The notes under the pieces were generated by a model, which saw nothing but the letters and a program-made list of their open reading frames with translations, did no database searches and had not been told where the DNA came from. Shown piece by piece: positions 15,973-57,028 of a stretch of DNA of 64,000 nt. The position numbers and the translations under genes were made by a program. The stretch is taken from IMG/VR virus record IMGVR_UViG_3300010396_000041; one strand, written 5' to 3'. Source of the stretch: a virus (taxonomy: Duplodnaviria > Heunggongvirae > Uroviricota > Caudoviricetes). The first letter of the stretch is position 1; the number at the start of each line of letters is the position of its first letter.

Positions 15973-15995
15973 TCTTGCTATGTTTCTGTACTGCG

Positions 15996-16193: not shown

Positions 16194-16214
16194 ATGCTAT
16201 GAAGTTGGCAGGCC

Positions 16215-16312: not shown

Positions 16313-16322
16313 TCGCCTTAGT

Positions 16323-16402
16323 GGCAGGAGCAGGATTCGAACCTGCGAAGCGTGAGCGATCGGTTTACAGCCGACTTCCATTGGCCACTCGGACACCCTG
16401 CC
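16323..16402 (-). tRNA. tRNA-Tyr (anticodon GTA), class II
   Basis: Acceptor GGCAGGG/TCCTGCC, loop CTGTAAA, variable arm CGCTCACGCTTCG. Confidence 0.6.
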
Positions 16403-16422
16403 ATTGCTGTTCAGTTGTAACG

Positions 16423-16493
16423 AGTCGCTGGCCGGATTTGAACCGGCGTCCACGGCTTTGCAGGCCGTTGCCTCGCCTCTCGGCCACAGCGAC
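16423..16493 (-). tRNA. tRNA-Cys (anticodon GCA)
   Basis: Acceptor GTCGCTG/CAGCGAC, loop CTGCAAA. Confidence 0.6.
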
Positions 16494-16503
16494 ACCTCTT
16501 GCG

Positions 16504-16576
16504 AGCCGAGGACGGGACTTGAACCCGCAACATCCTGATTGGAAGTCAGGCTCCCTACCAATTGGGCGACCTCGGC
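16504..16576 (-). tRNA. tRNA-Gly (anticodon TCC)
   Basis: Acceptor GCCGAGG/CCTCGGC, loop CTTCCAA. Confidence 0.65.
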
Positions 16577-16582
16577 GAGGTG

Positions 16583-16620
16583 AAGCAGACGTTCGCTGGG
16601 GTCAGCTGTCCTGGCTATCC
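16583..16620 (-). other. 10-bp inverted repeat GAAGCAGACG...CGTCTGCTTC in a tRNA spacer
   Basis: Seen directly. Confidence 0.35.
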
Positions 16621-16630
16621 GTCTGCTTCG

Positions 16631-16704
16631 CGGTCCTGACGGGACTTGAACCCGCGACCTCCACCTTGACAGGGTGGCGAGCACTCCAACTGCTCTACAG
16701 GACC
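16631..16704 (-). tRNA. tRNA-Asp (anticodon GTC)
   Basis: Acceptor GGTCCTG/CAGGACC, loop CTGTCAA. Confidence 0.65.
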
Positions 16705-16788
16705 TTGTGATGGCAGCACGGTGATCAGTGAACTGACGGAACAGCAGCGCCCTGGGATCTCTCCAGGTTCTACTCCGTACTGCCTTCG

Positions 16789-16864
16789 TAGCGGTGGTCG
16801 GATTCGAACCGACGATCTCAGGATTATGAGCCCTGCGGGGACGACCGAGCTCCCCTACACCGCG
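16789..16864 (-). tRNA. tRNA-Met (anticodon CAT); 1-72 mismatch and GGG in the anticodon stem hint at initiator-like features
   Basis: Loop CTCATAA, T-arm GTCGG-TTCGAAT-CCGAC. Confidence 0.55.
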
Positions 16865-29758: not shown

Positions 29759-29917
29759 GTGAGATGCCTCCGGAAAGAGATGTGCCGTGGCTCGGAGGTA
29801 GCCAGGCGCTGGCACATTATCACGCAAAGAATGTAACGATCTTGGGATTGAGTGAACCCTTCGTGGACAGCTTAGAACCCCAGCCCGAAGGCTGGGGTTG
29901 CGCAGGTCAGAGGCCTA

Positions 29918-32515: not shown

Positions 32516-34129
32516 CTAGAACGGCCAGGTGCCGTTACGACCCGCCTCCAGCAGCGGAATCAGGCGGAACGCCTGGTCCGTCAGCCCGCCGAAGGTGTGC
32601 CGGTTCTCACTGCCCGACGGAGCGTGCCCGTAGCGGTAGCCCGCCAGGTTCCAGGTGTAGACCGGCACCGTCTTCGGGACCGCTGCCGTCACATCCCAGG
32701 CGCCGTGGTAATCCGCCTGCTCGTCCGTCAGGATGATCACCCGGTCGTGTGCCTTGTAGTGCGTCGAGACCGCCTGCTGCGTCGAGGTACCACCCAGGTC
32801 GGTGAACCGGTCGATCAGCTTGAGCACCGAGTCGCCCGTGCGGAAACGCACCTCATGCGAGGAGGAGCCGAACTGAACGAGGTCAGCCTTCTCCGCGCGC
32901 AGCGCCAGCGCCGTACCGAACAAGGCTGCCGAGTCGGCGCGGTTCAACTGCGTCTTCTCGGAGATCCCGCCGAACATCGATCCGGAGCGGTCTACCAGCA
33001 CCAGAGTGCGGCCCGGCAAGCTCGGGACGTTCTCCAGCGACATGTTCAGCGCCTGCTCCAGCGGCCACGCCCAGCGCAGCCCGGAGTGCTTGTACGCGGC
33101 GAGGAACCGGAACGGGAACTGGCGCGACTTGCGGACCTCGTCGAGGTTGGCGATCCGCGCGGCGACCGCGTTCGCGGCGCCTTCGCTGATCTTCTTCTCG
33201 TCGAAGTTACGCAGGTTCCTGATCAAGGCCATATAGCCCATGGTCGGGATCTGCTTCTCCCAGGTGGCGCCGTCCATCGCGCCCTGCTTCCACCCGGCCG
33301 TCGCCTCCCAGGTCATGCCAGCCTTCGCCAGCTGCTCCGAAGCGTCGTCCGAGGCGAGCAGAGCCGCCTTCTCCTCGGCGTCGAGGGACGTCAGCTCCTT
33401 ACGGGCGGTGATGGTCTTGAGCCGTGCCGACGCCGGGTTCTCCGGGTCCTCACGGTCGTGACGGCGGTCGATCGCGTGCTCGAACAGGTCACCCTGCCAG
33501 GCCTTACCGACCGCCGGGCCCGGGTGCACCAGCTCCAGCACATCGCCCATACGCACCGCGTCGCCCTTGCTGTCGTACTTGAGCAGGCTGCGCTCGTTGT
33601 ACAGGCGCCGGGTCGCGTCGCCGAGACCGCGCTTGACCGGCTTCGGCATGGCCTTGCCGTACTTCGAGATCCAGTACGCCAGCAGCTCGGCAGGCTCGTC
33701 GGCGCGCTGGCAGGCAGCGTCGATCGCGCGGCGGTTGAAGCCGCGCACCTCGAAGACGGTGCCGACTCCCTCGCCGTCCTCGACCACCTTCGCGTCGATA
33801 CGGGCCTTCACCAGCTCGGCGGCCATGACCAGAGAAGCCGAGCGCATGTTGGCCTCGTTGCGCAGCCACGGGATCATCCGGACCAGCCAGTCCGGGTCCT
33901 CCAGCGCCACCTGGTGCACCAGCTGCTCGAAACGCGCGTCGCGCTGGTCGGCGCGCTCGTAGTAGGTGTTCTCGCCCACCATGTTGGTCACCGCGAGCAG
34001 GAACAGCTCAGACTTCGCGTCGCGGGCGAAGCCGGGGGCGCCGTTGAAGGTACGGCCGGTCGGGGTCTTCGCGGTCTTCACCGGGGAAGTGGTACGCGGC
34101 TTGGCGGTGGCGGTGTTGAACTTCGACAT
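32516..34129 (-). CDS. rsr: Ro60/Rsr ortholog (TROVE domain + C-terminal vWA/MIDAS), about 537 aa
   Basis: MSKFNT...TNMVGENTYYE TROVE-type N-terminus. C-terminal LVLVDRSGSM MIDAS. ATG 34129 with GAGGGGAG RBS; alternative GTG 34165. Confidence 0.85.
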   Translation of the reverse strand: MSKFNTATAKPRTTSPVKTAKTPTGRTFNGAPGFARDAKSELFLLAVTNMVGENTYYERADQRDARFEQLVHQVALEDPDWLVRMIPWLRNEANMRSASLVMAAELVKARIDAKVVEDGEGVGTVFEVRGFNRRAIDAACQRADEPAELLAYWISKYGKAMPKPVKRGLGDATRRLYNERSLLKYDSKGDAVRMGDVLELVHPGPAVGKAWQGDLFEHAIDRRHDREDPENPASARLKTITARKELTSLDAEEKAALLASDDASEQLAKAGMTWEATAGWKQGAMDGATWEKQIPTMGYMALIRNLRNFDEKKISEGAANAVAARIANLDEVRKSRQFPFRFLAAYKHSGLRWAWPLEQALNMSLENVPSLPGRTLVLVDRSGSMFGGISEKTQLNRADSAALFGTALALRAEKADLVQFGSSSHEVRFRTGDSVLKLIDRFTDLGGTSTQQAVSTHYKAHDRVIILTDEQADYHGAWDVTAAVPKTVPVYTWNLAGYRYGHAPSGSENRHTFGGLTDQAFRLIPLLEAGRNGTWPF

Positions 34130-34171
34130 GGTGGTGCTCCCCTCTTTCTGGGTGGCAGAGGGCACACGAAA

Positions 34172-34313
34172 GGGTGATGCCCGAGATCAAATCGTCGACT
34201 GTGTTAGCGCTCTACCGTTGAGCTATACGGCCCGAAGGCCATAACCGGATTCGAACCAGCAACCTCTTCATTACAAGTGAAGTAACAGTCAACATACGCA
34301 CCGGGCATCACCC
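34172..34313 (-). ncRNA. Y-RNA-like unit A with tRNA-like module (T-arm, loop-closed acceptor GGCCATA-TTCG-GGCCGTATA, D-arm)
   Basis: Termini GGGTGATGCCCGG/TCGGGCATCACCC pair (13 bp). Shares the GAAGTAAC...CGCACCGGG and GAGATCAAATCG blocks with units B-F. Confidence 0.5.
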
Positions 34314-34323
34314 TGACGTGGTC

Positions 34324-34447
34324 CCTCCCGAGATCAATTCGACGACGGTTTTAGAGTTCTGCGCTCAGTTGCGCGGAACGGGATTCGAACCCGAAGCCCC
34401 CGAAGGAGCTGTTCACCAGAAGTAACCGTCATCTGCGCACCGGGAGG
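34324..34447 (-). ncRNA. Y-RNA-like unit B with tRNA-like T-arm GGGTTCGAATCCCG
   Basis: Termini CCTCCCG/CGGGAGG plus GAUGACGG/CCGUCGUC pair around an internal loop. Confidence 0.5.
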
Positions 34448-34470
34448 TGCAAGTCTGTGGGTGCTGCGGT

Positions 34471-34569
34471 GGGAGGTCCCGCCTGAGATCAAATCGGCTG
34501 GGGTGTCTTGTTTTTGAATTGCGATCAATTGAAGTAACCCCGTCCTGCGCACCAGGCAGGACCTCCCAC
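34471..34569 (-). ncRNA. Y-RNA-like unit C (short, no tRNA-like module)
   Basis: Termini GGGAGGTCC/GGGACCTCCC pair. Same conserved end blocks. Confidence 0.4.
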
Positions 34570-34582
34570 TTTTCCGCGACGG

Positions 34583-34726
34583 GGCGTCCCCGAGATCAAA
34601 TCGGCGACGGGCTTTTTTACTAATGCTCTACCAGCTGAGCTATCCGGCGGCGAGCCGCCGGACTAGGACTCGAACCTAGGACCCTTAGTGCCTCATGAAG
34701 TATCCGTCGCCTGCGCACCGGGAACT
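34583..34726 (-). ncRNA. Y-RNA-like unit D with tRNA-like module (T-arm CCTAGGTTCGAGTCCTAG, loop-closed stem TCCGGCGGC-TCG-CCGCCGGA, D-arm TAGCTCAGCTGGTAGAGC)
   Basis: Manual folding. Confidence 0.45.
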
Positions 34727-34744
34727 CCCTATCAGCGGAATGAG

Positions 34745-34893
34745 GTCTCGCCAGAGATCAAATCGGGGAAGGAGACGTAGCGTGCTATCCATTACACTAC
34801 CCCTGCTTGTTCTGGTGCAGGGGGCGGGAATCGAACCCACTCTGCCGGTTCCGTAGACCGAAGTAGCCTTCTCCTACGCACCTGGCGAACCTC
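34745..34893 (-). ncRNA. Y-RNA-like unit E with tRNA-like module (GGGTTCGATTCCC T-arm, loop-closed CCCCTGC...GCAGGGG, D-arm-like TAGTGTAATGGATAGCAC)
   Basis: Manual folding. Confidence 0.45.
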
Positions 34894-34914
34894 ATATGCA
34901 GTTATCAAGAATCA

Positions 34915-34995
34915 GCCTGGCCAGAGATCATCATGGCTCTGGTGTTGGTTTCTTTAGCGAAGAAGTAACCAGTGCCTTCGCACCTAGCCAGGCAA
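34915..34995 (-). ncRNA. Y-RNA-like unit F (short)
   Basis: Variant end blocks GAGATCATCATGG and GAAGTAACCAGTGCCTTCGCACCTAGCCAGG. Confidence 0.35.
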
Positions 34996-47210: not shown

Positions 47211-47792
47211 CTAGCAGCAGCGAGTATGAGCCAAGAACTCGGCTCGCGTGGGGTCCTGCTCGCGGAAAACCCCCGTCAGCGACGTGGTCCGCATGATCGA
47301 CCCAGGCTTACGCGCGCCGCGCGTGACCATACAGCTATGGGTCGCGTGAATCGCGCAGGCAGCGCCGAGCACATCCAGATGCTTCTCTATAGCGCCCGTC
47401 ACCTGAGCCGTCAGCCGCTCCTGGATCTGGAGCGACCGCGCATACCAGTCGACCAGCCGAGCCAGCTTAGACAGACCAACCACCGCGCCGGTCGGGCCAG
47501 GGATGTACGCGACGAAGGCGTGACCCCAGAACGGCAGCAGGTGATGCTCACAGGTGCTGGAGAACTCGATCGGGCCGAGCGTGATCATCTGATCCGGCGC
47601 AGGTGAAGCGTCCGAGAACGTCACCGCCAACAGCTCCTCAGGAGCTGGCCCCGTGGGGGTCGTCGCCTCGATCAGAGCCTTCAGTACCCGACGCGGGGTA
47701 TCGAAAAGGCCCGGGCGGTCCGGGTCCTGGCCCGCCGCGATCAGAAGATCGCGCACCCCGTCGAGCGCGAACCCCTCGGTCACATGATCCAT
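47211..47792 (-). CDS. folE: GTP cyclohydrolase I (193 aa)
   Basis: ORF 47211..48026 from M79. [33 protein letters not shown]. Confidence 0.8.
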
Positions 47793-48205
47793 GCTGCCTC
47801 GTTCACATGAGTCTCCCGAACCACGCACCGAGAGATCACCGCATAGGGGGCACGCACCAAATCGCGCAGCACCTTCTGCCCCTCCTCGGCGATCATCGCG
47901 GCAACGTTCTCCACCGTCGGCCAGCCGTGCACCACGTAGACCTTGCAGCCCTCGGCGCGCAACAGCGGCACCAGCGGGTCGTCCGGGCCGAGCATCGACC
48001 CGTGATCCAGATTGTGGTCGATCCACTGGCGAAGCCCAGCCTTGAACGGCCCGAACTCAACCAGCACCCCGCCCGAAGCCAGCTGCGGCGCCTGCGCGGT
48101 CACCTCAACCCACCATGAATGACCGTGCAGAGACTTGCACTTTCCCTCAAGGTGCGGCAGCCGATGCGCGGTCTCGAAGTTATGACGCACCGTCACCTCA
48201 TGCAT
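47780..48205 (-). CDS. queD: 6-carboxy-5,6,7,8-tetrahydropterin synthase (141 aa)
   Basis: ORF 47780..48256 from M18. [12 protein letters not shown]...[13 protein letters not shown]. Confidence 0.8.
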
Positions 48206-48944
48206 CTGCCAGCACCCCCTCGGCGAAGTCGCGGTCCTCGTACTCGGTCGGGTCAATCAGTCCAGCGTCGCGGAACGCTTCGATCCGCTCGACGCAGGTG
48301 CCACACCGGCCGCAGTGCTTCGCTGGCGCTCCGTCAGTCAGGTAGGCATCGCCGTGCTTCGGAACCTGCCCGCCCTTGTAGCACGACCAGGTCAATCCGA
48401 GGGGCACCCCGAGCCGAGCCCCCTCACGGGCGATATCAGCCTTCGACCAAGTCACGAACGGCGTCACGATCCGGGGAACGTGGAACCCGTCGAGTCCCTG
48501 CGCTGCCAACTCCCGAAGCGCACCAACCCACTGCGGGCGGCAGTCGGGGTACACGGCGTGATCTCCCGCGTGGATGCCGAGCGCAACCAGCTCAGCACCG
48601 CGCGCCGAAGCAATCCCGATAGCGATATTCGCCATGATCGAGTTGCGGTTCGGCACGACCGTGGCACGCATGTTCTCTTCGGCATAGTGCCCTTCCGGGA
48701 CCTCGATCGACTTGTCGGTCAAAGCCGAGCCAGTCAGCTGCTTCCCAACCGACCGCAGATCGATCTCGTGCCACTCGGCGTCGTAATGATCGGCGATCTG
48801 AACCGCTGCCGTGAGCTCACGCTCGTGCCGCTGCCCATAGTTGAACGACAGCGCCAAGACGTCATACGTCTGATGGATGTGCGCCAAGAGCGTCGAGGAG
48901 TCCATACCCCCCGACAGCGACACAACCGCGAGTGCCCTGCCCAT
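48198..48944 (-). CDS. queC: 7-cyano-7-deazaguanine (preQ0) synthase (248 aa)
   Basis: SLSGGMDSSTLLA PP-loop. C-terminal CGRCGTC zinc site. Confidence 0.85.
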   Translation of the reverse strand: MGRALAVVSLSGGMDSSTLLAHIHQTYDVLALSFNYGQRHERELTAAVQIADHYDAEWHEIDLRSVGKQLTGSALTDKSIEVPEGHYAEENMRATVVPNRNSIMANIAIGIASARGAELVALGIHAGDHAVYPDCRPQWVGALRELAAQGLDGFHVPRIVTPFVTWSKADIAREGARLGVPLGLTWSCYKGGQVPKHGDAYLTDGAPAKHCGRCGTCVERIEAFRDAGLIDPTEYEDRDFAEGVLADA

Positions 48945-48991
48945 CTAGTGCTCCTTAGTTCGTAGTACGACCACTGTATTCGCTACATGCC

Positions 48992-50116
48992 TCATGTGCC
49001 ATCGACGGCTTCGAGGTGACCGGCGACAGTCTTCAAGTTCACCGGGATCGTCTCGGCGAGGAACACCTGCGTGCCCTCCTGCTCGCTGGCGTACTGACCG
49101 GCGCCCTTCAAGTTGAATGACAGAGAGTTCGCCAGGTACACGTTCGTGCCCGCCTCAGCCTGGTTCGTGATCTCGATCGCGTCCTTCAGGCAGTTGCCTC
49201 CCTGATCGGCGGCGAGGAACACCCCGGTGCCGTTGACCACCGGCGCGGCGGTGATCAGGTGCTGTGAGGCATCGACCGCCAGGTAGACCGAGGTGCCGCG
49301 CTGCGTGAGCGACTTCGGGGCGGGTACCTTGTGTCGCTTGGCGAGGTAGTCGCCCATGCGCAGGTAGGCGATAGCGGGAGCGCCGCGCATCATCGCGACC
49401 TCCTTGCGGAACTGAGGTTCAGTACGCTGCGACTTCTGGGCGAACCCGGGACGTCCGACCAGAGCGGGGTCAGCGCCGTGAGCGCGCAGCAGACGGGCGT
49501 GCTTGCGGGCGGCGAGCCGGTCACCTCCCTGGAGCTGGATCAGCTTGTTGGCACGGTCATCCCACAGCGTGATGGTGCCGTAGCGCATCCCTGATGCCCA
49601 GGCGGAAGAGTCCACGCTGTAGAACGGCAGCTTGCGCAGCGTCTCCAGGCGGGTCTGGCCGAAGCCGTGGAACACCGTGCCGGTCTCCTGGGCGATCTTG
49701 AAGCATTGGATCAGCCAGCGCAGCACCGCAGGGGCGTCCTTCGCGTGCGGCACCATCCCGCCAAGCGCCATGTAGTCGTACTGCTTGACTAGCTTCTCCA
49801 GCTCCGCATAGGGGGTGCCGGTGTGGAACACTGGCAGCACCGGGAGACCCTGCCGTTCGAGGGCAGCCGTGTTACGCGCGGTAGCGGCAGGGTCCCCGAT
49901 CACATCCAAGGTCGCCCGCACCGTCAGCAGGTGGTCCCATTCCTTCAGCCACGCGGCGTAGTCCGCCAGCTTGATCGTCGCGCCCAGGGTTGCTGCCGAG
50001 AACGCCCCGGAGTCAGCGAACACCTCGCACGGCCCGTGGTAGGAGTCGACGATCTCTTGAAGGTTGGTCTTCTGGTGATAGTGGAACGAGACCAGGAACC
50101 GGAATACCCCGCTCAC
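48992..50116 (-). CDS. tRNA-guanine transglycosylase-like (DpdA-like) paralog 1 (374 aa) with C-terminal about 20-aa repeats
   Basis: TGT-like FADSGAFS and ALGGMVP. C-terminal repeats TSVYLAVDAS/TGVFLAADQG/TNVYLANSLS/TQVFLAETIP. Confidence 0.6.
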   Translation of the reverse strand: MSGVFRFLVSFHYHQKTNLQEIVDSYHGPCEVFADSGAFSAATLGATIKLADYAAWLKEWDHLLTVRATLDVIGDPAATARNTAALERQGLPVLPVFHTGTPYAELEKLVKQYDYMALGGMVPHAKDAPAVLRWLIQCFKIAQETGTVFHGFGQTRLETLRKLPFYSVDSSAWASGMRYGTITLWDDRANKLIQLQGGDRLAARKHARLLRAHGADPALVGRPGFAQKSQRTEPQFRKEVAMMRGAPAIAYLRMGDYLAKRHKVPAPKSLTQRGTSVYLAVDASQHLITAAPVVNGTGVFLAADQGGNCLKDAIEITNQAEAGTNVYLANSLSFNLKGAGQYASEQEGTQVFLAETIPVNLKTVAGHLEAVDGT

Positions 50117-50994
50117 AGCTCACCCGCCGAGATCGCCGCTGGAACGTCGTCGGGGAACACCGCGAGATATAGCACGGTGCCTTTCGTCCGCCAGCCCTCC
50201 GGCGGCGTGACCTTGTGGCGAACGGCCATAGCCTCCCCCATTTTCATGTGCGCGACCATACCTGCTCGTTTCAGCATCGCACGTTCTAACTTGAATTGTT
50301 CAGGTGTGCGACGCTTCGCCTGGGCGAACCCGACCGCGCCGATCAGGTGAGTGGAGATCCCGTGCGCGGTCAGCAGCTGCCGGTCCGTTGGCGACCTGAC
50401 GGGCCGCCCACATAGCACCACCCTGAACCGGCGGGTCGAAGGGTTCCACAGCCGTGCCTCGCCGAAGCGCACCCCAGCCGACCAGGTACTGGAGTCGACG
50501 CTGTAGAACGGTAGGGCGCTAAGAAGCTGCGGGGAGGTCTGTCCGAAGCCGTGGAAGCGGGTGCCGTACTGCTCGCCGATCTTGAAGCAGCGGATCAGCC
50601 AGCGGCCCAGCGTCGAGACCTGGTTGCCGAACGGCACCATCCCGCCGAGCGCGATGTACGGGTACTCCTGACACAGCTTCTCCAGCCGGTCGAACCCGGA
50701 GCCGGTGTGGAACACCGGGATCACCTTCAGGCCGTCAGCGTTGAGTTTCACGGTGTTGCGTTGGGTGGCCTCGGGGTCGCCGATCACGTCCAAGGTGGCT
50801 GCGGTGGTGATGAACCGGCGGTGCTCGCCCAGCCAGGCCTTGTAGTCGGCGAGCTTCACCTGAGCGCCGATCGAGGCAGCCGAATACGCCCCCGAGTCGG
50901 CGAAGATCTCCGAACCCGGGGGCAGCTTGCGACTCAGCGCCGCGACGTCGGTATCACGGTGATAGTGAAAGGAGAGCAGGACCCGGACTCTCAC
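50113..50994 (-). CDS. tRNA-guanine transglycosylase-like (DpdA-like) paralog 2 (293 aa)
   Basis: Alignable with paralog 1 over about 270 aa (FADSGAYSAASIGAQVKLADYKAWL..., ALGGMVPFG...). Confidence 0.6.
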   Translation of the reverse strand: MRVRVLLSFHYHRDTDVAALSRKLPPGSEIFADSGAYSAASIGAQVKLADYKAWLGEHRRFITTAATLDVIGDPEATQRNTVKLNADGLKVIPVFHTGSGFDRLEKLCQEYPYIALGGMVPFGNQVSTLGRWLIRCFKIGEQYGTRFHGFGQTSPQLLSALPFYSVDSSTWSAGVRFGEARLWNPSTRRFRVVLCGRPVRSPTDRQLLTAHGISTHLIGAVGFAQAKRRTPEQFKLERAMLKRAGMVAHMKMGEAMAVRHKVTPPEGWRTKGTVLYLAVFPDDVPAAISAGEL

Positions 50995-51599
50995 GCATCG
51001 GCCCGCGCCTTCTGGATCAGATGCATAAACCGGTCATTGTCGTCGTTCGGGTTCATACAGCCGTTGGTCAGCTCATAGAAGTCATCGCGGACGTTCGGGG
51101 GGACCTTGAACCGCAGGGTGGGCCAGAGGTCTTCCTCGTCGTGCTCGCCGAACTCGGTCTCCAGGTCGTCGAGGGAAGGCGGCTCATCGCCTTCCTCACC
51201 GCCGAGGAGCGCTGCCAGCTCCTCGAAGTCCTCGGCGTGGTAGCCGGTGCCGGAGAAGTCGCCGTCCAGCCGCTCCAGGAGCACCAGGAGGGCGTCGTCG
51301 TCGTAGGTGGCGATGTCGCTGGTGCGGTTCGCCGAGAGCATGATCTTCAGGGCGCGGGCGTCGTCCACGTCGACCAGTACCACGTCGATGGTGTCCCAGC
51401 CGAGCTGGCGCGCGGCCAGCAGGGTGTGGTTACCCGACAGTACATATCGGGTGGATGCCTGGACGACCAGGGGGGAGTACTGGCCGTTCTCTTTCAGCGA
51501 CTCGGCGATGATGTTCGGGTCGCCCCGGCGTGCATTCTCGGGATGCGTGATGAGTGAGTCGGTTTCTACCGTCTCGATATTGTCAAGGAGGGAACCCAT
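50991..51599 (-). CDS. ParB-like nuclease-domain protein (202 aa)
   Basis: LITHPENARRGD...VLSGNHTLLAARQLG ParB N-terminal motifs. Acidic C-terminus. Confidence 0.7.
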   Translation of the reverse strand: MGSLLDNIETVETDSLITHPENARRGDPNIIAESLKENGQYSPLVVQASTRYVLSGNHTLLAARQLGWDTIDVVLVDVDDARALKIMLSANRTSDIATYDDDALLVLLERLDGDFSGTGYHAEDFEELAALLGGEEGDEPPSLDDLETEFGEHDEEDLWPTLRFKVPPNVRDDFYELTNGCMNPNDDNDRFMHLIQKARADA

Positions 51600-51656
51600 G
51601 GCGCCCAGGGTAGCGAACCCTGGGCGCCATGCTCCTGATCTGGCTCCGCTGAAGGT

Positions 51657-51821
51657 CTAGAAGGCGACCAGGCGCCGACGAGCGGCACGGCGGGCACGAA
51701 GATCGTGCATATAGTCGGTGTTGGCCTGGGTGCAGCGGGGGCAGCGGCACTTGTGGTTCACATAGCCGTTGCGCGTCCCGTGCTTGATGTCAGGAGCGAC
51801 GTACCGCTTGGTGGTGGTCAT
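51657..51821 (-). CDS. single CRC-motif zinc-ribbon protein (54 aa)
   Basis: ORF 51657..51992 from M58. HGTRNGYVNHKCRCPRC. GAGGAGAC RBS. Confidence 0.5.
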   Translation of the reverse strand: MTTTKRYVAPDIKHGTRNGYVNHKCRCPRCTQANTDYMHDLRARRAARRRLVAF

Positions 51822-52414
51822 GCCTTGTCTCCTCGGGCCTTGACGAAGTCCCCGAGCCGCGCCCGTGCCCATTGAGAGGGTAGGGCGCTGATGTCCGCAG
51901 GCTGAACATTGTCGGTGCCCAGACGCATGGCGAGCTTGGCCAGGGAGTCGGCGCACTCGTTGAGAGGGTGGCCGATGTGACCGGGCTGCCACAGGTAGTC
52001 GATCTCCGGGTGCGTAGCGACGAGCGCTGCGAAGTCTTCCAGTCTCGGCTGGGGGACGTTCTCCGGCTGATAGAACAGGGGACGGTGGCGCTTGTACTCC
52101 GGGGGGAGTATGTCCTGGTCACCGTTGCGCCAGGCCGTCAAGAACTTCACCGCGTCCTGAGAGTCAGTCAGTACGGTGATACGTGCGCCGAGCCCACGCT
52201 TGTGGAGCGCGTAGTAAACGGCGTACAGCTCATATACGGCGTTGTCAGCGAGCACCGGTTTCACGGTGCGTAGACGTGCCGCCCACGTGCCGTCAGTGGC
52301 GACGTGGGCAAGACCGATGCAGCCGGTCTCTGAACTGATGGCAGCGTCAGCGGCGATGATCAGATCGCCGGGGATGGGCTCGACGGCGCCGTCCATGGTG
52401 TATCGACGCCGCAT
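51818..52414 (-). CDS. ribonuclease H (198 aa)
   Basis: DGA...GC.G...TDSQ...QPGHIGHPLNECADSLAK. Confidence 0.7.
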   Translation of the reverse strand: MRRRYTMDGAVEPIPGDLIIAADAAISSETGCIGLAHVATDGTWAARLRTVKPVLADNAVYELYAVYYALHKRGLGARITVLTDSQDAVKFLTAWRNGDQDILPPEYKRHRPLFYQPENVPQPRLEDFAALVATHPEIDYLWQPGHIGHPLNECADSLAKLAMRLGTDNVQPADISALPSQWARARLGDFVKARGDKA

Positions 52415-52427
52415 GGAGGTCTCCTTT

Positions 52428-52598
52428 CTAGGTGCGTGCCCGGTGGCGGGCGCGCGCGGCGGTCAGGCTTTCGGGGGTGGTGACTGAGCAGTAGATGGTC
52501 GGGTCTACCTGGGAGCGCAATTCTTTGAGCGCCGCTCGCACGCTGGCGTGATTGAGCTTGCCAGCGCGCTGGAGCAACAGCGTCGGGTCCTTACGCAA
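52428..52598 (-). CDS. possible small protein (about 56 aa, TTG start)
   Basis: GGAAGGAG 10 nt upstream of TTG, downstream of the motif copy at 52647. Weak. Confidence 0.25.
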   Translation of the reverse strand: MRKDPTLLLQRAGKLNHASVRAALKELRSQVDPTIYCSVTTPESLTAARARHRART

Positions 52599-52646
52599 GG
52601 TTGCCGAGCTCCTTCCGCTTAATCGGTAGCGGCGGGAATGCCGCTT

Positions 52647-52661
52647 TGAGTAGCGTAGCAC
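52647..52661 (-). promoter_or_regulatory. conserved motif TGAGTAGCGTAGCAC (leftward member of a divergent pair)
   Basis: Back-to-back with 52706-52720. Confidence 0.55.
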
Positions 52662-52705
52662 GCGAGAGGGGGTGTACCCCAGAGTCAGGCCCTCGCGCTG
52701 GTCTC

Positions 52706-52720
52706 ATGCTACGCTACTCA
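52706..52720 (+). promoter_or_regulatory. conserved motif ATGCTACGCTACTCA (rightward member of a divergent pair)
   Basis: 31 nt upstream of GTG 52752 (queE). Confidence 0.6.
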
Positions 52721-52751
52721 GGTAAGGATCAGCTCACCCCGAAAGGCCCCC

Positions 52752-53495
52752 GTGGACAACCTTCTCGTCAACGAGATCTTCGGACCCACCATTCAAGGAG
52801 AGGGCGCAGCCGCTGGCAGGCACTGCCTGTTCGTGCGCCTGGCCCTGTGCAACCTCGAATGCTCCTGGTGCGACACCCCCTACACCTGGGCGCTGACCCC
52901 GCAGAAGGCAGCCAAGCACGCCAGCGGCAAGCAGTACGACAAGACCACCCAGGTACGCGAGATGACTCCGGGCCAGGTCATCGACGCACTCACCAACCTG
53001 TGGAACATCAAGGTCAGTCCGACCATGGTGGTGGTCTCCGGCGGCGAACCGCTGATGCAGCGCAATCAGCTTCCCGAGCTGGCGCGCAGGCTTCATGACC
53101 TGGGCTGCCCGCTGCACATCGAAACTGCGGGCACGCTCATTCCCCCGAGTGAGCTCACCGACGGGGTCGCTCAGTACAACGTCTCGCCCAAGCTGGCCAA
53201 CAGCGGCAATGTGTTGACCAAGCGGTTCAAGCCCTCCGTGCTCGCTCACTTCGCCAGCCTCGATCAGGCGTGGTTCAAGTTCGTCGCGACCTCTCCCGCT
53301 GACCTCGATGAGATCGATGGGATTGTGGCGATGACCGGCATTCGTGCCGATCGGGTCATGATCATGCCTGAGGGGGTGACCCCTGGCGGGAACCTGGCCG
53401 TGGGCAGGGCAATCGCCGATGCTGTGATCGGCCGTGGCTTTGGTCTGACCTTGAGGAGCCATATCTTGCTTTGGGGCGATGAGAGAGGGCGCTAG
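52752..53495 (+). CDS. queE: 7-carboxy-7-deazaguanine synthase, radical SAM (247 aa)
   Basis: CNLECSWCDTPYTW cluster. SGGEPL. Confidence 0.85.
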   Translation: MDNLLVNEIFGPTIQGEGAAAGRHCLFVRLALCNLECSWCDTPYTWALTPQKAAKHASGKQYDKTTQVREMTPGQVIDALTNLWNIKVSPTMVVVSGGEPLMQRNQLPELARRLHDLGCPLHIETAGTLIPPSELTDGVAQYNVSPKLANSGNVLTKRFKPSVLAHFASLDQAWFKFVATSPADLDEIDGIVAMTGIRADRVMIMPEGVTPGGNLAVGRAIADAVIGRGFGLTLRSHILLWGDERGR

Positions 53496-53534: not shown

Positions 53535-53549
53535 ATGCTACGCTACTCG
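53535..53549 (+). promoter_or_regulatory. conserved motif variant ATGCTACGCTACTCG
   Basis: 63 nt upstream of GTG 53613. Confidence 0.5.
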
Positions 53550-53612
53550 ACATCGGCAACGCCCCCACAGCTGAACCTCCATTCACCACAACCCAGCGAA
53601 AGGACACCACTG

Positions 53613-54461
53613 GTGCCCGAAACCCTGATCAACCCGGTCGTCAACGCGCCGGACCCCACGTGGGTGCTCATCACTCCCGAGATGGCCGCAGAGTGGCTGA
53701 AGGAGCTCAACACCCACAACCGGCGGCTCAACATGGGCCACGTCGAGTCGCTGTCGCGCGACATGATGGCCGGTAAGTGGCTGCCGAACAACAACGCCAT
53801 CGCCTTCGGCATCAACCCGGAAGGCCGGGAAGTCCTCCTCGACGGACAGCACCGCCTGGCCGCCATCCGCCGCGCCGGGGTCGCCATCCCGATGCTGGTC
53901 CAGCGTGGCCTGCCCATGGACTCGCAGAAGGCCATGGACATCAACCGGGCGCGCACCTACAAGGACCAGCTGCACCTGGACGACATCAAGAACTCCTCGA
54001 CCATCGCCGCCGTGCTCCGGCGCATCTGCCTGTGGGAGGCAGGGTCCTACCGTTCCAACAACTCGACGTTCAAGCCCACGCGCGCCGAGATGGACGAGAT
54101 GTTCGCCGCGCACCCCGACCTCGTCAAGGACGCGGACTGGGCACGGGGCCGGGCAGCTTCACTCCAGCTGGCCCCGACGGTGGCAACCTTCGTGCGGTGG
54201 CTGCTGCGCGAGACCAACGAGAAGGAAGGCATCTGGTTCACCGACCGGATGTACGACCTGCACGAGCTGCCGCGCGACCACATCATCCAGGTGCTTCACC
54301 GGCGTATCTCTCGGGAGCGGGAGATGCGCGCGTACGGGCCGGATGACTACACGGCTCTGATCATCAGGGCCTGGAACTACTACCGGCGCGGCGAGACCCC
54401 CGTGAAGATCCAGATGCCGGGAATGCTGACCAACGAGACGTTCCCGCGTCCGGTGGTCTGA
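53613..54461 (+). CDS. DGQHR-domain (DndB/ParB-like) protein (282 aa)
   Basis: ORF 53535..54461 trimmed to GTG 53613 (GAAAGGA RBS). LLDGQHRLAAIRRAG. Confidence 0.6.
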   Translation: MPETLINPVVNAPDPTWVLITPEMAAEWLKELNTHNRRLNMGHVESLSRDMMAGKWLPNNNAIAFGINPEGREVLLDGQHRLAAIRRAGVAIPMLVQRGLPMDSQKAMDINRARTYKDQLHLDDIKNSSTIAAVLRRICLWEAGSYRSNNSTFKPTRAEMDEMFAAHPDLVKDADWARGRAASLQLAPTVATFVRWLLRETNEKEGIWFTDRMYDLHELPRDHIIQVLHRRISREREMRAYGPDDYTALIIRAWNYYRRGETPVKIQMPGMLTNETFPRPVV

Positions 54462-54473: not shown

Positions 54474-54500
54474 TCTGGCCCCCTGCTTCGGCGGGGGGCC
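54474..54500 (+). terminator. hairpin GGCCCCCTGCTTCGGCGGGGGGCC
   Basis: Follows the stop at 54461. Confidence 0.55.
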
Positions 54501-54520
54501 AGCGTCATATAGGGGTAATC

Positions 54521-55012
54521 ACTGTGTTGATTTCACGGGGCGACGCGATCGTCGCCATCGCCATGTCCATCGAAGCCGGTCAGTATGTGATCTCTATCCC
54601 ACCGGCTATAGCCGTGTCGGTGATGGAGTCGCTGACGGAACTCAATCCGACGCACTATCTGGATAAGGGCGCGCCGGAGATCATGGTCGCTGACGGGGAG
54701 AATGCGATCACCGCCGTAGGGGCGATGGGCATGTATCAATCGATCTTCGGAGAGCAGAACATCGCCTCGGTGGCGGTGCTGCCCCCTGGCACCCCGCCGG
54801 AGCGGGTGAAGGCGGCGATCTCACGGGGGAGCATCGCGCCGGTGGAGCAGGTGCCGAGCCTGATTCTGCTCTCGCAGCCGGACGCGGCGGACCCGGAGAT
54901 CACCTATGTGGTGGACCTGATGATCGAGGCGCTGGCGGCCTCGGAGCCTGAGCACGCGGCGTACCTGAAGGAGGCCGCGAAGGCATACGAGGAGAAGTAC
55001 GGCGACGAGTAA
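54521..55012 (+). CDS. hypothetical protein (163 aa)
   Basis: ORF 54524..55012 extended to GTG 54521 (AGGGG RBS). Confidence 0.5.
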   Translation, partial: TVLISRGDAIVAIAMSIEAGQYVISIPPAIAVSVMESLTELNPTHYLDKGAPEIMVADGENAITAVGAMGMYQSIFGEQNIASVAVLPPGTPPERVKAAISRGSIAPVEQVPSLILLSQPDAADPEITYVVDLMIEALAASEPEHAAYLKEAAKAYEEKYGDE

Positions 55013-55025
55013 CGCTGGTGCCGGT

Positions 55026-55052
55026 GGCGCCCTATCGATCTTGGTAGGGCGC
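55026..55052 (+). terminator. hairpin GGCGCCCTA TCGATCTTGG TAGGGCGC
   Basis: Follows the stop at 55012. Confidence 0.5.
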
Positions 55053-55102
55053 TACTGTGTCATGCCGGGAGGTGGCCGAGCGGGAACGTCGCCCGGCCCG
55101 AT

Positions 55103-55117
55103 AGAGTGACGTAGCAT
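55103..55117 (-). promoter_or_regulatory. conserved-motif-like sequence AGAGTGACGTAGCAT in the minus orientation, upstream of a + gene (anomalous orientation)
   Basis: Seen directly. No convincing minus-strand gene to its left. Confidence 0.3.
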
Positions 55118-55207
55118 GACATGAGATCCGAAAGAGAGGCCCCCGGGTCAGTGGGGGCCGCTCTCGGATGCACAGGATCACGCACAACCAGCAACAGGGA
55201 GGCTAGC

Positions 55208-56401
55208 ATGACCAACGGGCAGCCGCAGCCCATCGCCCGCCAGACCCATGGGCCCGAAAGCGCCCCAGAAACGCCCGGAGAGCGCTTCTCCGCCGCTCCC
55301 GACCCCGCCGCCGCCCCTGACATCGCTCAGGCAGTAATCGCCTCTCAGCTGCCTTCCTCGTCCAAGCTGACGATGCTCACGCTCGCCGCGCTCGGCGACG
55401 TCGTTCAGATCGGCCTGGAGAGCCTGGTGAAGCTCACCGGGTTGACCAAGCCGACGGTACGGGTGCATTTGTCCGCCCTGGAGAACGACGGCTGGTTGCT
55501 GATTGACCGGCCCAGCGCCGAGGACAGCGCCCGTCGTATCCCCCCTATTTACCGCCTCGCCGTACCGGCCGAGATCTTTCACACGGGTCAAATGGCTTGC
55601 CCTGTTAACGTGTTTACAGGTCAAGCCATTATCCCCGTCACGGGTGAAATGACTTACCCTGTTAAGGCCTTTACAGGTCAAGTCATTTCACCCCCGCGCG
55701 GGAGCGCGCGCGCGCACTGCCTTTCTGAAAACCTAGATATCTATACTTCAGTTAGTTCTTCTCTCTCAGTGAGCGAAGCGAACGGTAACGCGCGAGGAGT
55801 GATCGACGAAGCGGCTGCGCCGCTGCCGCTCCCTTCGGTCGCTGAGATCGAACTCCGCACGGTGCCGTCGAAGCCCACCCGCAAGGCCACCCCGAACGAC
55901 TCGATGGAGTTCGACCGGTTCTGGAAGGGCTACCCCCGGAAGATCGGCAAGGGCGCCGCCCGCCAGGCCTGGGCGAAGCACGTCATCGCCGCCCGGATCG
56001 ACGTCGAACTGGTGATCTCCGCCGCCGAGTTCTTCGGACTCACCCGGGCCGGGCAGGACCCGAAGTACACCCCGCATGCCTCGACCTGGCTTAGCCAGCA
56101 GCGCTGGGAGGACACCCCGGACCCCGAGTACCGGGAGCTGAACAAGGCTGAGCAGCGTACGGCGCACAACCTGTCGCTGGTCGTCGCCGCTGCCGAGCGC
56201 GAAGGCACCAACCCGTTGTCGCTGCTCTTCCCGGACGAGGCTGAGCAGGCGCGGCTGAAGGCGGAGGCCGATGCCTGGTACCGGGGAGAGCCGCTGCCGC
56301 CGCGCCCGGTCGCCCCCAGTGCCCCCCAGGAGGCGCGGAGAGGCGGCTCTCCCGCCCTCGAAGGGGCAGAGTGGGGCCAGGGAAGGGGTCGCCTTTTCTG
56401 A
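55208..56401 (+). CDS. replication-initiator/replisome-organiser-like protein (397 aa)
   Basis: ORF 55121..56401 from M30 (GGGAGG RBS). Winged-HTH (LTMLTLAALGDVVQIGLESLVKLTGLTKPTVRVHLSALENDGWL). Three about 12-aa repeats (xPVxxFTGQ). C-terminal FDRFWKGYPRKIGKGAARQAWAKH. Confidence 0.55.
   Translation: MTNGQPQPIARQTHGPESAPETPGERFSAAPDPAAAPDIAQAVIASQLPSSSKLTMLTLAALGDVVQIGLESLVKLTGLTKPTVRVHLSALENDGWLLIDRPSAEDSARRIPPIYRLAVPAEIFHTGQMACPVNVFTGQAIIPVTGEMTYPVKAFTGQVISPPRGSARAHCLSENLDIYTSVSSSLSVSEANGNARGVIDEAAAPLPLPSVAEIELRTVPSKPTRKATPNDSMEFDRFWKGYPRKIGKGAARQAWAKHVIAARIDVELVISAAEFFGLTRAGQDPKYTPHASTWLSQQRWEDTPDPEYRELNKAEQRTAHNLSLVVAAAEREGTNPLSLLFPDEAEQARLKAEADAWYRGEPLPPRPVAPSAPQEARRGGSPALEGAEWGQGRGRLF
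55560..55770 (+). repeat. two about 55-bp direct repeats, each an inverted repeat (AATGGCTTG..CAAGCCATT; GAAATGACTT..AAGTCATTTC), followed by a locally AT-rich patch (55731-55770)
   Basis: Seen directly. Lies inside the initiator-like gene. Confidence 0.55.
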
Positions 56402-56450
56402 GCGCTCCTAGCCCCCGGTTGTACCGATCGACCAGAGACCAGGAGTGATC

Positions 56451-56975
56451 ATGAACCAGGACCAGGCGGCAGCCCTGCTCGCCTACATCTCGGCCATCGA
56501 CCGCCGCCCGATCCAGGACGGCGACTCGGTGCTATGGGCCGATCTGCTTGACGACATTCCGTATGACCCGGCCAAGGCGGCGGTGCGGGCTCACTACCGC
56601 GAAGAGTCGCGGTGGATTACTCCGGCAGAGGTTCGGCGGCGGGCGCTGGCGAGCCGAGCCGAGGCGACTCGCCGCCCCCTACCGCCCGGGCCCGAAGCCG
56701 TGCCAGACGCTGACCCAGACGATGAGCCCGGATACAGGCGGGCGCTGGCTGAAGGCCGCTGGCGCGAACCCGACCCGGAGGCAAGACCGCGCCCGGTCGC
56801 CGAGCTTCTGGCGGGCTACGGCGCAGTCACCGTGATCCCGCCAGAAGAGCCCTCCGGCCCGCTGGCGGTGCCCTGCCCGATGCGCTCGTGCGGCGCGAAG
56901 GCGGGCGAGGCCTGCCGGAATATGTTCGGGCGGGAAAGGGACCCGCATCCGGTACGACGCCGCGACCCTGGGTGA
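56451..56975 (+). CDS. hypothetical protein (174 aa)
   Basis: ORF 56445..56975. ATG 56451 with AGGAGTG RBS. Confidence 0.5.
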   Translation: MNQDQAAALLAYISAIDRRPIQDGDSVLWADLLDDIPYDPAKAAVRAHYREESRWITPAEVRRRALASRAEATRRPLPPGPEAVPDADPDDEPGYRRALAEGRWREPDPEARPRPVAELLAGYGAVTVIPPEEPSGPLAVPCPMRSCGAKAGEACRNMFGRERDPHPVRRRDPG

Positions 56976-57028
56976 TCTTGACCATTGGTCAATGATTTGG
57001 CTACACTGCTCCCGAAAGGAGGGGCGCC

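What the first reader, a model, noticed from the sequence alone, without database searches (positions are those of the whole stretch)
55560..55770. Candidate replication origin (iterons plus AT-rich patch) embedded in the initiator-like gene
Seen in sequence. Two about 55-bp direct repeats, each containing a 9-10-bp inverted repeat around CCCTGTTAA(C/G)G..TTTACAGGTCAAG, are immediately followed by the only conspicuously AT-rich 40 bp in the region (CTAGATATCTATACTTCAGTTAGTTCTTCTCTC). Both lie inside the gene for a wHTH protein whose own sequence has matching tandem peptide repeats. Established knowledge: phage initiators (lambda O-type) often contain their ori iterons within the coding sequence.
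Basis: partly seen in the sequence, partly recalled or inferred. Interest (0 to 1): 0.65.

Follow-up and report, generated by a model that had tools for sequence, protein, structure and literature searches.

The report
Replication origin inside phage initiator gene
A soil phage carries its likely DNA replication start site (four protein-binding repeats plus an easily melted AT-rich patch) inside the gene for the protein that probably binds it, the layout long known from phage lambda and some plasmids, so it is a well-supported but ordinary find.

Summary
Window 55583-55695 holds four ~23-bp units with dyad-symmetric ends (ACrGGT..ACCyGT), in alternating orientation, spaced 33/24/33 bp. They occur nowhere else in the 64 kb (0 expected by chance). 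After a 24-bp CGCG-rich spacer comes 55722-55761, the most AT-rich 40-mer of the whole window (30% GC).

All of it lies in gene 55208-56401, which matches PHROG 270, 'replication initiation protein'. It falls in the stretch that AlphaFold2 models as a disordered linker between a confident N-terminal winged-helix domain and a conserved C-terminal helical domain.

Four relatives with DNA available carry their own, different dyad repeats at the same place, followed by an AT-rich block. Near-identical phages have swapped the N-domain plus repeats as one cassette. Among 38 dereplicated distant relatives that share only the C-domain, local repeats peak 50-150 nt upstream of that domain.

This is the architecture of lambda O/ori-lambda, pSK41 RepA and SPP1 gp38/oriL. 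Verdict: a very probable origin (confidence about 0.8, no experiment) and a new member of a known kind. GC skew gives no support either way.

The parts
55208..56401 (+). Initiator gene (397 aa; stop codon included), preceded by GGGAGG at 55197-55202
   Evidence: ORF listed. The identical 397-aa protein P0001 is on record on 11 contigs of up to 106.5 kb. PHROG 270 'replication initiation protein', E = 1.3e-23.
55322..55579 (+). N-terminal winged helix-turn-helix domain (residues 39-124), the presumed iteron-binding module
   Evidence: AlphaFold2 pLDDT 88-97 with an H-H-E-H-H-E-E topology. Weak Pfam HTH_IclR, HTH_5 and HTH_36 hits. The best Foldseek matches are RepA_N N-terminal domains 4pql, 4pt7 and 5kbj, at E about 1e-2.
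55580..55888 (+). Linker-coding stretch (residues 125-227) that holds the origin elements
   Evidence: AlphaFold2 pLDDT 31-47, with no secondary structure after residue 124. GC is 42-52% here against 63-73% in the flanks.
55583..55605 (+). Iteron 1: ACGGGTCAAATGGCTTGCCCTGT
   Evidence: 0 mismatches to the consensus.
55616..55638 (-). Iteron 2, inverted: ACGGGGATAATGGCTTGACCTGT on the minus strand
   Evidence: 3 mismatches.
55640..55662 (+). Iteron 3: ACGGGTGAAATGACTTACCCTGT
   Evidence: 0 mismatches.
55673..55695 (-). Iteron 4, inverted: GGGGGTGAAATGACTTGACCTGT on the minus strand
   Evidence: 2 mismatches.
55696..55719 (.). GC-rich CGCGCG spacer between the iterons and the AT-rich block
   Evidence: Sequence read. 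A CGCG-rich block aligns here in L001, L002 and L003; L005 is much weaker.
55722..55761 (.). AT-rich block, the candidate DNA-unwinding element; it contains AAAACC at 55728-55733
   Evidence: Lowest-GC 40-mer of the 64 kb, at 30%. AAAACC occurs once per gene in all five relatives, always in this block, and is read in codon phase 2 in the window and L001 but in phase 1 in L002, L003 and L005.
55759..55852 (.). Imperfect inverted repeat flanking the right side of the AT block (arms 55759-55790 and 55821-55852); a possible third element, with low certainty
   Evidence: 32-nt arms at 75% complementarity in the window. Counterparts exist in L001 (27 nt, 74%) and L003 (21 of 21 nt), but none in L002 or L005.
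55889..56107 (+). Conserved C-terminal helical domain (residues 228-300; FDRFWKGYPRK...W motifs), the presumed replisome-recruiting module
   Evidence: AlphaFold2 pLDDT 85-94. Invariant F, W, Y, P, R and K columns. 19,741 representative proteins match at E <= 1e-3. No Pfam model matches it.

Best explanation
The segment 55583-55761 is the phage's replication origin of the iteron type. It is written into the linker-coding part of its own initiator gene.

Inferred mechanism:
1. Dimers of the N-terminal winged-helix domain bind the four 23-bp units, which have dyad-symmetric ends.
2. The resulting nucleoprotein complex stresses the adjacent duplex.
3. The AT-rich block 24 bp downstream melts.
4. 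The conserved C-terminal helical domain recruits a helicase, helicase loader or primase to the opened DNA.

Because the sites lie in frame, each pair of iterons adds 19 residues to a disordered linker in the protein.

Shown here: the sequence anatomy, the uniqueness of the motif, the predicted domain layout, and the comparative pattern. Inferred only: binding, melting, recruitment, and use as the start of replication.
For: 1. The motif is unique. Four copies sit only here in 64 kb, against 0 expected.

2. The AT block is the most AT-rich 40-mer of the window.

3. The host gene is an initiator by profile: PHROG 270 at 1.3e-23, plus PHROG 9327, 9474 and the O-like PHROG 391. Of 37 proteins that share its C-domain, 21 have an HTH_36 N-domain, 10 a DnaD_N domain and 1 a Phage_rep_org_N domain.

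4. AlphaFold2 places the repeats in a disordered linker (pLDDT 31-47) between two confident domains.

5. The four close relatives with DNA available each have 3-5 dyad units of their own, of different sequence, at the same place. L001 also keeps the 33/24/33/24 spacing. The reading frame stays open in all of them.

6. There is constraint at the DNA level. AAAACC is kept in the AT block in two different reading phases. Between the window and L001, third-position identity is 0.72-0.74 in the origin part against 0.50 in the winged-helix domain.

7. The module is exchanged as a cassette. L002 and L005 are 86-89% identical on both sides, but the N-domain plus origin cannot be aligned. The window breaks against L003 and L005 at the same two points, 55213 and 55897.

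8. The pattern holds across the family. In 38 dereplicated IMG/VR loci that share only the C-domain, local 9-mer repeats cover 30-38% of positions at -150 to -50 nt from the FWxxYP motif, against about 6% elsewhere. GC also dips at -50 to 0. Perfect dyads are 2.6 times enriched there, p = 0.0012, n = 29. Loci without an N-domain in the same ORF mostly lack the repeats.

9. The same design is experimentally established for lambda O (PMC7466680), pSK41 RepA (PMC5703833) and SPP1 gp38/oriL (PMC6316719).
Against: - There is no experimental evidence of binding or initiation.
- Cumulative GC skew shows no turning point at 55.6 kb, although in this window skew mostly follows the direction of the genes.
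- No helicase, loader, primase or polymerase partner was identified among the window proteins scanned.
- About 42 kb of the ~106.5-kb genome is outside the window, so a second or main origin elsewhere cannot be excluded. SPP1, for example, has two origins.
- No DnaA box lies nearby.
- Iteron spacing is not conserved in L002, L003 and L005.
Confidence: 0.8

Rival explanations
1. The units are binding sites for the winged-helix protein, but they act only in autoregulation or copy control (an operator or handcuffing array inside the gene). The true origin lies elsewhere in the genome.
For: Iteron arrays in plasmids also serve in control. The occupied sites lie in the path of transcription of the gene itself. 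42 kb of the genome was not seen. GC skew gives no origin signal here.
Against: The array is coupled to the most AT-rich block of the window. That iteron-then-AT order is kept in close and in distant relatives, as expected of an unwinding element and not of an operator. No promoter-like site lies in or near it.
Confidence: 0.07
2. The DNA repeats are a by-product of selection for a tandem peptide repeat in the protein linker and have no function as DNA.
For: The repeats are in frame (57 = 19 codons; 33 and 24 are also multiples of 3), and the peptide repeat is visible.
Against: - Dyad symmetry has no reason to exist under selection on the protein, yet it is found in every relative and is enriched across the family.
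- The linker is predicted to be disordered and its sequence is not conserved.
- A conserved DNA motif is read in two different phases.
- The repeats change together with the N-domain.
Confidence: 0.04
3. The two 57-nt hairpins act as RNA in the initiator's own mRNA (translation pausing, processing or stability), or as extruded DNA hairpins that serve as single-strand initiation signals.
For: The fold is very stable, z = -9.3. Hairpin potential is also present in L001 and L002.
Against: No Rfam family matches; the only hit is a spurious miRNA-precursor match at E = 0.054. Which units can pair, and at what distance, differs between relatives. In L001 and L005 the units are direct and each is its own palindrome, so no single structure is conserved. 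What is conserved is a set of dyad-ended units.
Confidence: 0.05
4. The array is a centromere-like (parS) site for one of the nearby ParB-like proteins, or a packaging recognition site.
For: ParB-like genes lie at 50991-51599 and, as a weak match, at 53535-54461. parS sites are palindromic and often repeated.
Against: The repeats track the initiator gene in 38 unrelated contexts. They change with the initiator's N-domain while the neighbouring DNA stays 86-89% identical. The ParB-like gene 50991-51599 sits directly beside the 7-deazaguanine genes. The terminase gene is 37 kb away.
Confidence: 0.03

Closest known systems
Phage lambda O protein and ori-lambda (lambdoid phages, including Stx phages)
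   Same: The origin lies in the middle of the initiator gene. It consists of four (or six) iterons followed by an AT-rich tract. Extra iterons add residues to the protein (PMC7466680). In this window the iterons also have dyad-symmetric ends. The N-terminal binding domain plus origin behaves as an exchangeable specificity cassette; that this is also the lambdoid pattern is from my own knowledge.
   Different: Homology to O is not convincing: Pfam Phage_rep_O gives no hit, and only PHROG 391 'O-like' matches, at E = 6e-4. The units are 23 bp long and alternate in orientation at 33/24/33 spacing. A 24-bp GC-rich spacer separates them from the AT block. The host is a high-GC organism (65% GC), presumably an actinobacterium. 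No lambda P-like loader was seen.
RepA_N plasmid initiators (pSK41 Rep)
   Same: An N-terminal winged-helix domain binds four Rep boxes located centrally within the rep gene. The central part of the protein is encoded by the origin and acts as a linker. The C-terminal domain is conserved within a host group and contacts primase. N-domain plus origin is swapped as a module in pPR9, to an HTH_36-type phage-like N-domain (PMC5703833). The best structural matches of this N-domain are RepA_N N-terminal domains.
SPP1 gp38 replisome organiser and oriL
   Same: The origin-binding protein binds direct repeats positioned inside its own gene, next to an AT-rich unwinding element (PMC6316719). One of the 37 C-domain relatives has the Phage_rep_org_N domain.
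   Different: This protein itself gives no Phage_rep_org_N match. No second copy of the repeats (an oriR equivalent) lies in the 64 kb seen.
PHROG 270 and related phage initiators with an HTH_36 or DnaD_N N-domain and the FWxxYPRK C-domain (annotated 'RepA-like replication initiator' in some actinophage records)
   Same: Direct profile match over residues 74-386 of the 426-aa ORF translation used as query. The invariant C-domain motifs are shared. tblastn hits fall on Arthrobacter and Gordonia phage genes with that annotation. Repeats are found across the family at the same position.
   Different: Close relatives are known only from metagenomes, and no record in the phage collection matches at the DNA level. 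The linker here is longer: the iterons lie 212-325 nt upstream of the C-domain motif, against 50-150 nt in most relatives.

Membership tests
Lambda O-type origin (origin inside the initiator gene) | The origin elements lie within the initiator's coding sequence, between a DNA-binding N-domain and a C-domain | tested here: met
   The iterons and the AT block fall in residues 125-227, the low-confidence linker between two confident domains.
Lambda O-type origin (origin inside the initiator gene) | Several (four or more) iterons with internal dyad symmetry | tested here: met
   Four 23-bp units with ACrGGT / ACCyGT ends, against 0 expected by chance.
Lambda O-type origin (origin inside the initiator gene) | An AT-rich tract on one side of the iteron array | tested here: met
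   The lowest-GC 40-mer of the window starts 26 bp after the last unit.
Lambda O-type origin (origin inside the initiator gene) | The initiator is homologous to lambda O (Pfam Phage_rep_O) | tested here: not met
   No Pfam hit at E <= 0.1. Only PHROG 391 'O-like' matches, at E = 5.9e-4 over about 80 residues.
Lambda O-type origin (origin inside the initiator gene) | The initiator binds the iterons, and replication starts there | not testable with these tools
   Needs gel-shift or footprint assays and origin mapping.
RepA_N initiators (pSK41 type) | A RepA_N domain (PF06970) at the N-terminus | tested here: inconclusive
   No Pfam match. However, the top Foldseek hits are RepA_N N-terminal domains 4pql, 4pt7 and 5kbj, at E = 1.3e-2 to 3.9e-2.
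RepA_N initiators (pSK41 type) | Rep boxes located centrally in the rep gene, which encode a linker | tested here: met
   the description of pSK41 is from PMC5703833.
RepA_N initiators (pSK41 type) | A DnaD-like C-terminal helical domain that contacts primase | tested here: inconclusive
SPP1 gp38 / Phage_rep_org_N replisome organisers | A Phage_rep_org_N domain (PF09681) | tested here: not met
   Absent from this protein. Present in 1 of the 37 proteins that share the C-domain.
PHROG 270 / FWxxYPRK C-domain phage initiators | A profile match to the family over both domains | tested here: met
   E = 1.3e-23, residues 74-386 of the 426-aa ORF translation against profile positions 42-286 of 383.
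PHROG 270 / FWxxYPRK C-domain phage initiators | Invariant C-domain residues (F..FW..YPR...K..A ... P...WL....W.D) | tested here: met
   These columns are invariant in alignments A1, A3 and A5.
PHROG 270 / FWxxYPRK C-domain phage initiators | A winged-helix N-domain of the HTH_36 or DnaD_N type | tested here: inconclusive
   HTH_36 matches at E = 0.043, below Pfam's cut-off, but over the full profile. The AlphaFold2 winged-helix fold is confident. Among relatives, 21 of 37 have HTH_36 and 10 of 37 have DnaD_N.

The most novel reading that the evidence does not exclude
Besides the lineage-specific iterons, the origin may hold a second element that does not depend on initiator specificity. The candidate is a set of strand-asymmetric A/C-rich short motifs in the AT block. 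In this window and its four relatives the motif is AAAACC, kept in two different reading phases. In distant relatives the motifs are AACC, ACCC and CCAT(A), often as 12-13-nt tandem repeats, lying in the last 100 nt before the C-domain.

These motifs could be single-strand DNA contacts for the conserved C-domain or for the incoming helicase loader. That would be analogous to DnaA-trios, or to Rep proteins binding one strand of the unwinding element. The initiator would then touch its origin with both domains.
Probability: 0.18. Interest if true: 0.6.

Novelty: new member of a known kind. Interest (0 to 1): 0.35.

Why it matters
It gives a precise and testable origin for an uncultured ~106-kb high-GC phage. 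The host is presumably an actinobacterium.

The wider value is a rule for annotation. A very large set of phage initiators shares the FWxxYPRK C-domain: 19,741 representative protein clusters, with no Pfam model found in the members scanned. In these proteins the origin can be predicted from sequence as the dyad repeats plus AT-rich dip just upstream of that domain. The N-domain plus origin is the unit that recombination exchanges.

This could help in building shuttle vectors for actinobacteria and in reading phage mosaicism. It does not change any concept, because the design has been textbook knowledge since lambda.

Tried and rejected
- Tandem Repeats Finder found nothing at 55300-56000. The array has only two imperfect 57-bp copies.
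- Megablast of 54500-57000 against 50,697 phage records gave no match.
- A scan of viral contigs with the single protein found no relative. The alignment-based scan did work.
- The word-indexed protein search with the C-domain alone returned a single hit. The exhaustive HMMER search later showed that the family is huge.
- A scan of metagenome contigs for the iteron pattern returned one unrelated chance match, L092. It therefore says nothing about a second origin.
It is uninformative, not contradictory.
- No DnaA box lies near the site, and there is no promoter-like site.
- No Rfam family matches the site.
- DNA for relative P0003 was not available.
- The AT-rich, repeat-rich region at 34.2-34.9 kb was considered as a rival origin. 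It was rejected because it matches Y RNA-like (YrlA) genes next to a Ro60-like gene.
- An inserted mobile element (MITE-like) was considered and rejected. The repeats are in frame, are specific to each lineage, and are present at the same place in every relative examined.

Full report
**Context.** The window is part of an uncultured phage.
- It encodes a portal and a large terminase, 24 tRNAs and RecE/RecT-like recombination proteins.
- It carries a set of 7-deazaguanine genes: GTP cyclohydrolase, QueD, QueC, QueE and two DpdA-like transglycosylases.
- It also has a Ro60-like gene.
- GC content is about 65%.
- The initiator protein is found, identical, on 11 metagenome contigs. Two of them, 106,509 and 106,539 bp long, carry the gene at different offsets, which suggests a circular or circularly permuted genome of about 106.5 kb (the circularity is inference).
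- By GC3 and ORF layout, genes run on the minus strand up to about 52.6 kb and on the plus strand from 52.75 kb. The finding lies 3 kb into the rightward block.

**Observation.** The direct repeat is real: 55582-55630 and 55639-55687, 86% identical, period 57 bp.

Each copy is itself a long inverted repeat with arms of 26-27 nt. The region folds very stably as a single strand, z = -9.3.

Read unit by unit, the array is four 23-bp elements at 55583(+), 55616(-), 55640(+) and 55673(-). Their ends are dyad-symmetric (ACrGGT ... ACCyGT), and their core (AATGrCTT) alternates in orientation. A degenerate consensus with up to three mismatches finds only these four in 64 kb, against none expected. The 12-nt core finds the same four, against 0.84 expected.

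A 24-bp CGCG-rich spacer follows. After it comes 55722-55761, at 30% GC the most AT-rich 40-mer of the entire window; the next lowest is 38%. The whole stretch 55580-55790 has 42-52% GC, against 63-73% around it.

**The gene.**
- The ORF is open from 55121 to 56401.
- The likely start is the ATG at 55208, behind a GGGAGG. This gives the 397-aa protein that public gene calls also report.
- It matches PHROG 270 'replication initiation protein' at E = 1.3e-23 over both domains. It also matches two other initiator or primosomal PHROGs through the C-domain, and weakly the 'O-like' PHROG 391 through the N-domain.
- Pfam gives only sub-threshold helix-turn-helix hits: HTH_IclR, HTH_5, HTH_24 and HTH_36.
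- AlphaFold2 (11-sequence alignment) predicts a confident winged-helix domain (residues 39-124, pLDDT 88-97) and an unstructured stretch (residues 125-227, pLDDT 31-47). A confident helical domain follows (residues 228-300), then a helical tail (C-terminal part alone).
- The unstructured stretch corresponds to DNA 55580-55888. The iterons, the spacer and the AT block therefore occupy exactly the linker-coding part of the gene.
- Among solved structures, the best matches of the N-domain are the N-terminal domains of staphylococcal RepA_N initiators (4pql, 4pt7, 5kbj). The scores are weak and many other winged-helix regulators follow closely.

**Close relatives.** Five homologues at 40-61% identity were found, and DNA was obtained for four of them. 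Each keeps one open frame through the region, and each has its own repeat array directly after the winged-helix domain.
- L001 has five 23-bp palindromes, ACGGGTGTAACCATTACACCCGT, at the same 33/24/33/24 spacing.
- L002 has four units of the type GTGGGAAAATGAyTTACCCAC.
- L003 has units of the type GTGGTAAAGCTCCTTACC.
- L005 has a different N-domain and four units of the type CTCAGsTrCCCGAAA..GGAyCTGAG.

Downstream, an AT-rich block aligns in all four; the CGCG-rich block aligns in L001, L002 and L003 and is much weaker in L005. An imperfect inverted repeat further downstream is present in the window, L001 and L003 only.

The hexamer AAAACC occurs exactly once per gene in all five, always in the AT block. 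It is read in codon phase 2 in the window and L001 and in phase 1 in L002, L003 and L005. This argues for constraint on the DNA and not on the peptide.

Between the window and L001, third-codon-position identity is 0.72-0.74 in the origin part against 0.50 in the winged-helix domain, while amino-acid identity is no higher. This is a weak supporting sign.

**Cassette exchange.** L002 and L005 are 86-89% identical in DNA on both sides of the gene's 5' half, but cannot be aligned from the start codon to just before the C-domain (L002 524-1101). The window loses alignment with L003 and with L005 at the same two points, 55213 and 55897. The N-domain and the origin are therefore inherited and exchanged as one module. 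This is what is expected if the N-domain recognises the repeats. The review of staphylococcal plasmids reports the same for pPR9 against pSK41.

**The wider family.** A scan of viral contigs with the alignment found at least 465 loci that encode the C-domain. An exhaustive HMMER search found 19,741 representative proteins at E <= 1e-3.
- In the 81 best loci, and again in 38 loci dereplicated by k-mer sharing, the fraction of bases lying in local 9-mer repeats (direct or inverted, within 250 nt) rises from about 0.06 to 0.30-0.38. The rise is at -150 to -50 nt from the FWxxYP motif, and GC dips at -50 to 0.
- Loci in which the C-domain stands alone, without an N-domain in the same ORF, mostly lack the repeats.
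- The examples inspected are arrays of two to seven units, most of them dyad-symmetric, often spaced 18-25 bp. Unit types include GGTGACnnnnnGTCACC, ATGCGCAAAATCTGCGCAT and GTGCCAAATTGGCAC. In four of the six loci short A/C-rich tandem repeats follow.
- Perfect 6-nt dyads are 2.6 times enriched in that stretch (Wilcoxon p = 0.0012, n = 29).
- The N-domains of these relatives are HTH_36 (21 of 37), DnaD_N (10), and singly Phage_rep_org_N, RP-C or RepL. All of these are initiator or organiser domains. No Pfam model matched the C-domain.

**Comparison with what is known.**
- In lambdoid phages the origin consists of O-binding iterons plus an AT-rich tract in the middle of gene O, and extra iterons lengthen the O protein (PMC7466680).
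- In pSK41 the winged-helix N-terminal domain binds four Rep boxes placed centrally in rep. The origin-encoded central part is a linker, and the C-terminal domain contacts primase (PMC5703833).
- In SPP1, gp38 binds direct repeats of oriL inside gene 38, next to an AT-rich unwinding element (PMC6316719).
- For mycobacteriophage RepA proteins, an origin within repA has only been suggested (PMC7157519).

The present case works like all of these. By sequence it belongs to the PHROG 270 / FWxxYPRK group. It does not belong to the lambda O, RepA_N or Phage_rep_org_N Pfam families.

**Rivals.** Five alternatives were considered. Each is less likely, for the reasons given under Rival explanations and Tried and rejected.
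- A control-only binding array.
- Protein-level repeats with no DNA function.
- RNA or DNA hairpins.
- A partition or packaging site.
- An inserted mobile element.

The other AT-rich, repeat-rich region of the window (34.2-34.9 kb) is explained by Y RNA-like genes.

**What remains open.**
- GC skew gives no signal.
- No helicase or loader partner was identified among the window proteins scanned.
- 42 kb of the genome was not examined.
- Nothing has been tested at the bench.

**A lead beyond the known pattern.** In 29 distant loci with an N-domain, AACC occurs 48 times in the stretch -110 to -10 nt before the C-domain motif, against 12.3 expected. It is found in 21 of the 29 loci and in all three codon phases. 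ACCC, CCAT and ATA-type words are also enriched. The window's AT block, GAAAACCTAGATATCTATAC, has the same character. This may mark a specificity-independent part of the origin. Within-locus tandem repeats and residual relatedness between loci inflate these counts.

**Verdict.** This is a new member of a known kind, of moderate to low interest. The practical by-product is a family-wide rule for locating origins.

Noticed in passing
window 34160-34950 (minus strand), next to gene 32516-34165 (minus strand): There are three Y RNA-like (YrlA) matches below Rfam's gathering score: 46.6 bits (E = 5e-9) at 34598-34710, 33.4 bits at 34206-34267 and 21.1 bits at 34782-34840. Each has a tRNA-like module, and 27-34-nt repeats recur in 3-4 copies. 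They lie directly upstream of a Ro60-like gene (TROVE and VWA domains; PHROG 850). ARAGORN calls no tRNA here. This looks like a phage-borne Ro60/Y RNA module with several Y RNA copies.
   Followed up: partly
window 12127-16864 (minus strand): A cluster of 24 tRNA genes in three groups. One has an odd anticodon loop, which ARAGORN reports as 'tRNA-???' at 14600-14677.
   Followed up: no
window 47211-53495: A 7-deazaguanine (queuosine-precursor) gene set: GTP cyclohydrolase (47211-48026), QueD (47780-48256), QueC (48198-48944), two DpdA-like transglycosylases (48992-50116 and 50113-50994), a ParB-like protein (50991-51599) and QueE (52752-53495). This suggests that the phage DNA carries modified guanines. 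If so, this could affect how the G-rich iteron half-sites are read.
   Followed up: no
window 52647-52720: A 19-nt inverted repeat at 89% complementarity (TGAGTAGCGTAGCACGCGA / TCTCATGCTACGCTACTCA) lies in the intergenic region where leftward and rightward genes diverge. It is a candidate operator or promoter control site.
   Followed up: no
window 2598-6884 (minus strand): A very long ORF of 1428 aa. The portal domain takes only residues 87-725. A ParB-like segment lies near residues 1206-1265, and a further small domain sits at the C-terminus. This may be a fusion, or an ORF called too long.
   Followed up: no
window 27731-29827 (minus strand): A 698-aa ORF with extensive internal DNA repeats (periods 33, 54 and 108 nt) and no PHROG or Pfam match.
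   Followed up: no
loci L006-L086, the 100 nt before the FWxxYP motif; window 55722-55745: Strand-specific A/C-rich words are enriched between the iterons and the C-domain in distant relatives. AACC occurs 48 times against 12.3 expected, and ACCC 54 times against 9.5; CCCAT(A) is also enriched. They occur in all three codon phases and often as 12-13-nt tandem repeats, such as AACCAAAAGACT x2, AGAACCATCAGTA x3 and AACCATCCATAG x2.
   Followed up: partly
protein family of window 55889-56107: The C-domain (F..FW..YPRK.GK..A...W ... P..TWL....W.D) is matched by 19,741 representative proteins at 50% clustering. No Pfam model matched it in any of the 37 members scanned. It occurs both fused to varied winged-helix N-domains and as a stand-alone protein of about 100-150 aa.
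   Followed up: partly
L086 2712-2910 (Streptomyces sp. ME19-01-6, NZ_JARAXF010000020.1): The only cultured-genome relative found (apart from one MAG) carries at least five clear GGTGACGyCCACGTCrCC dyad units (a sixth and a seventh are weaker) at 18-23 bp spacing, followed by AACCAAAAGACT x2, just upstream of the C-domain. This would be a tractable model for testing the rule in a culturable host.
   Followed up: partly
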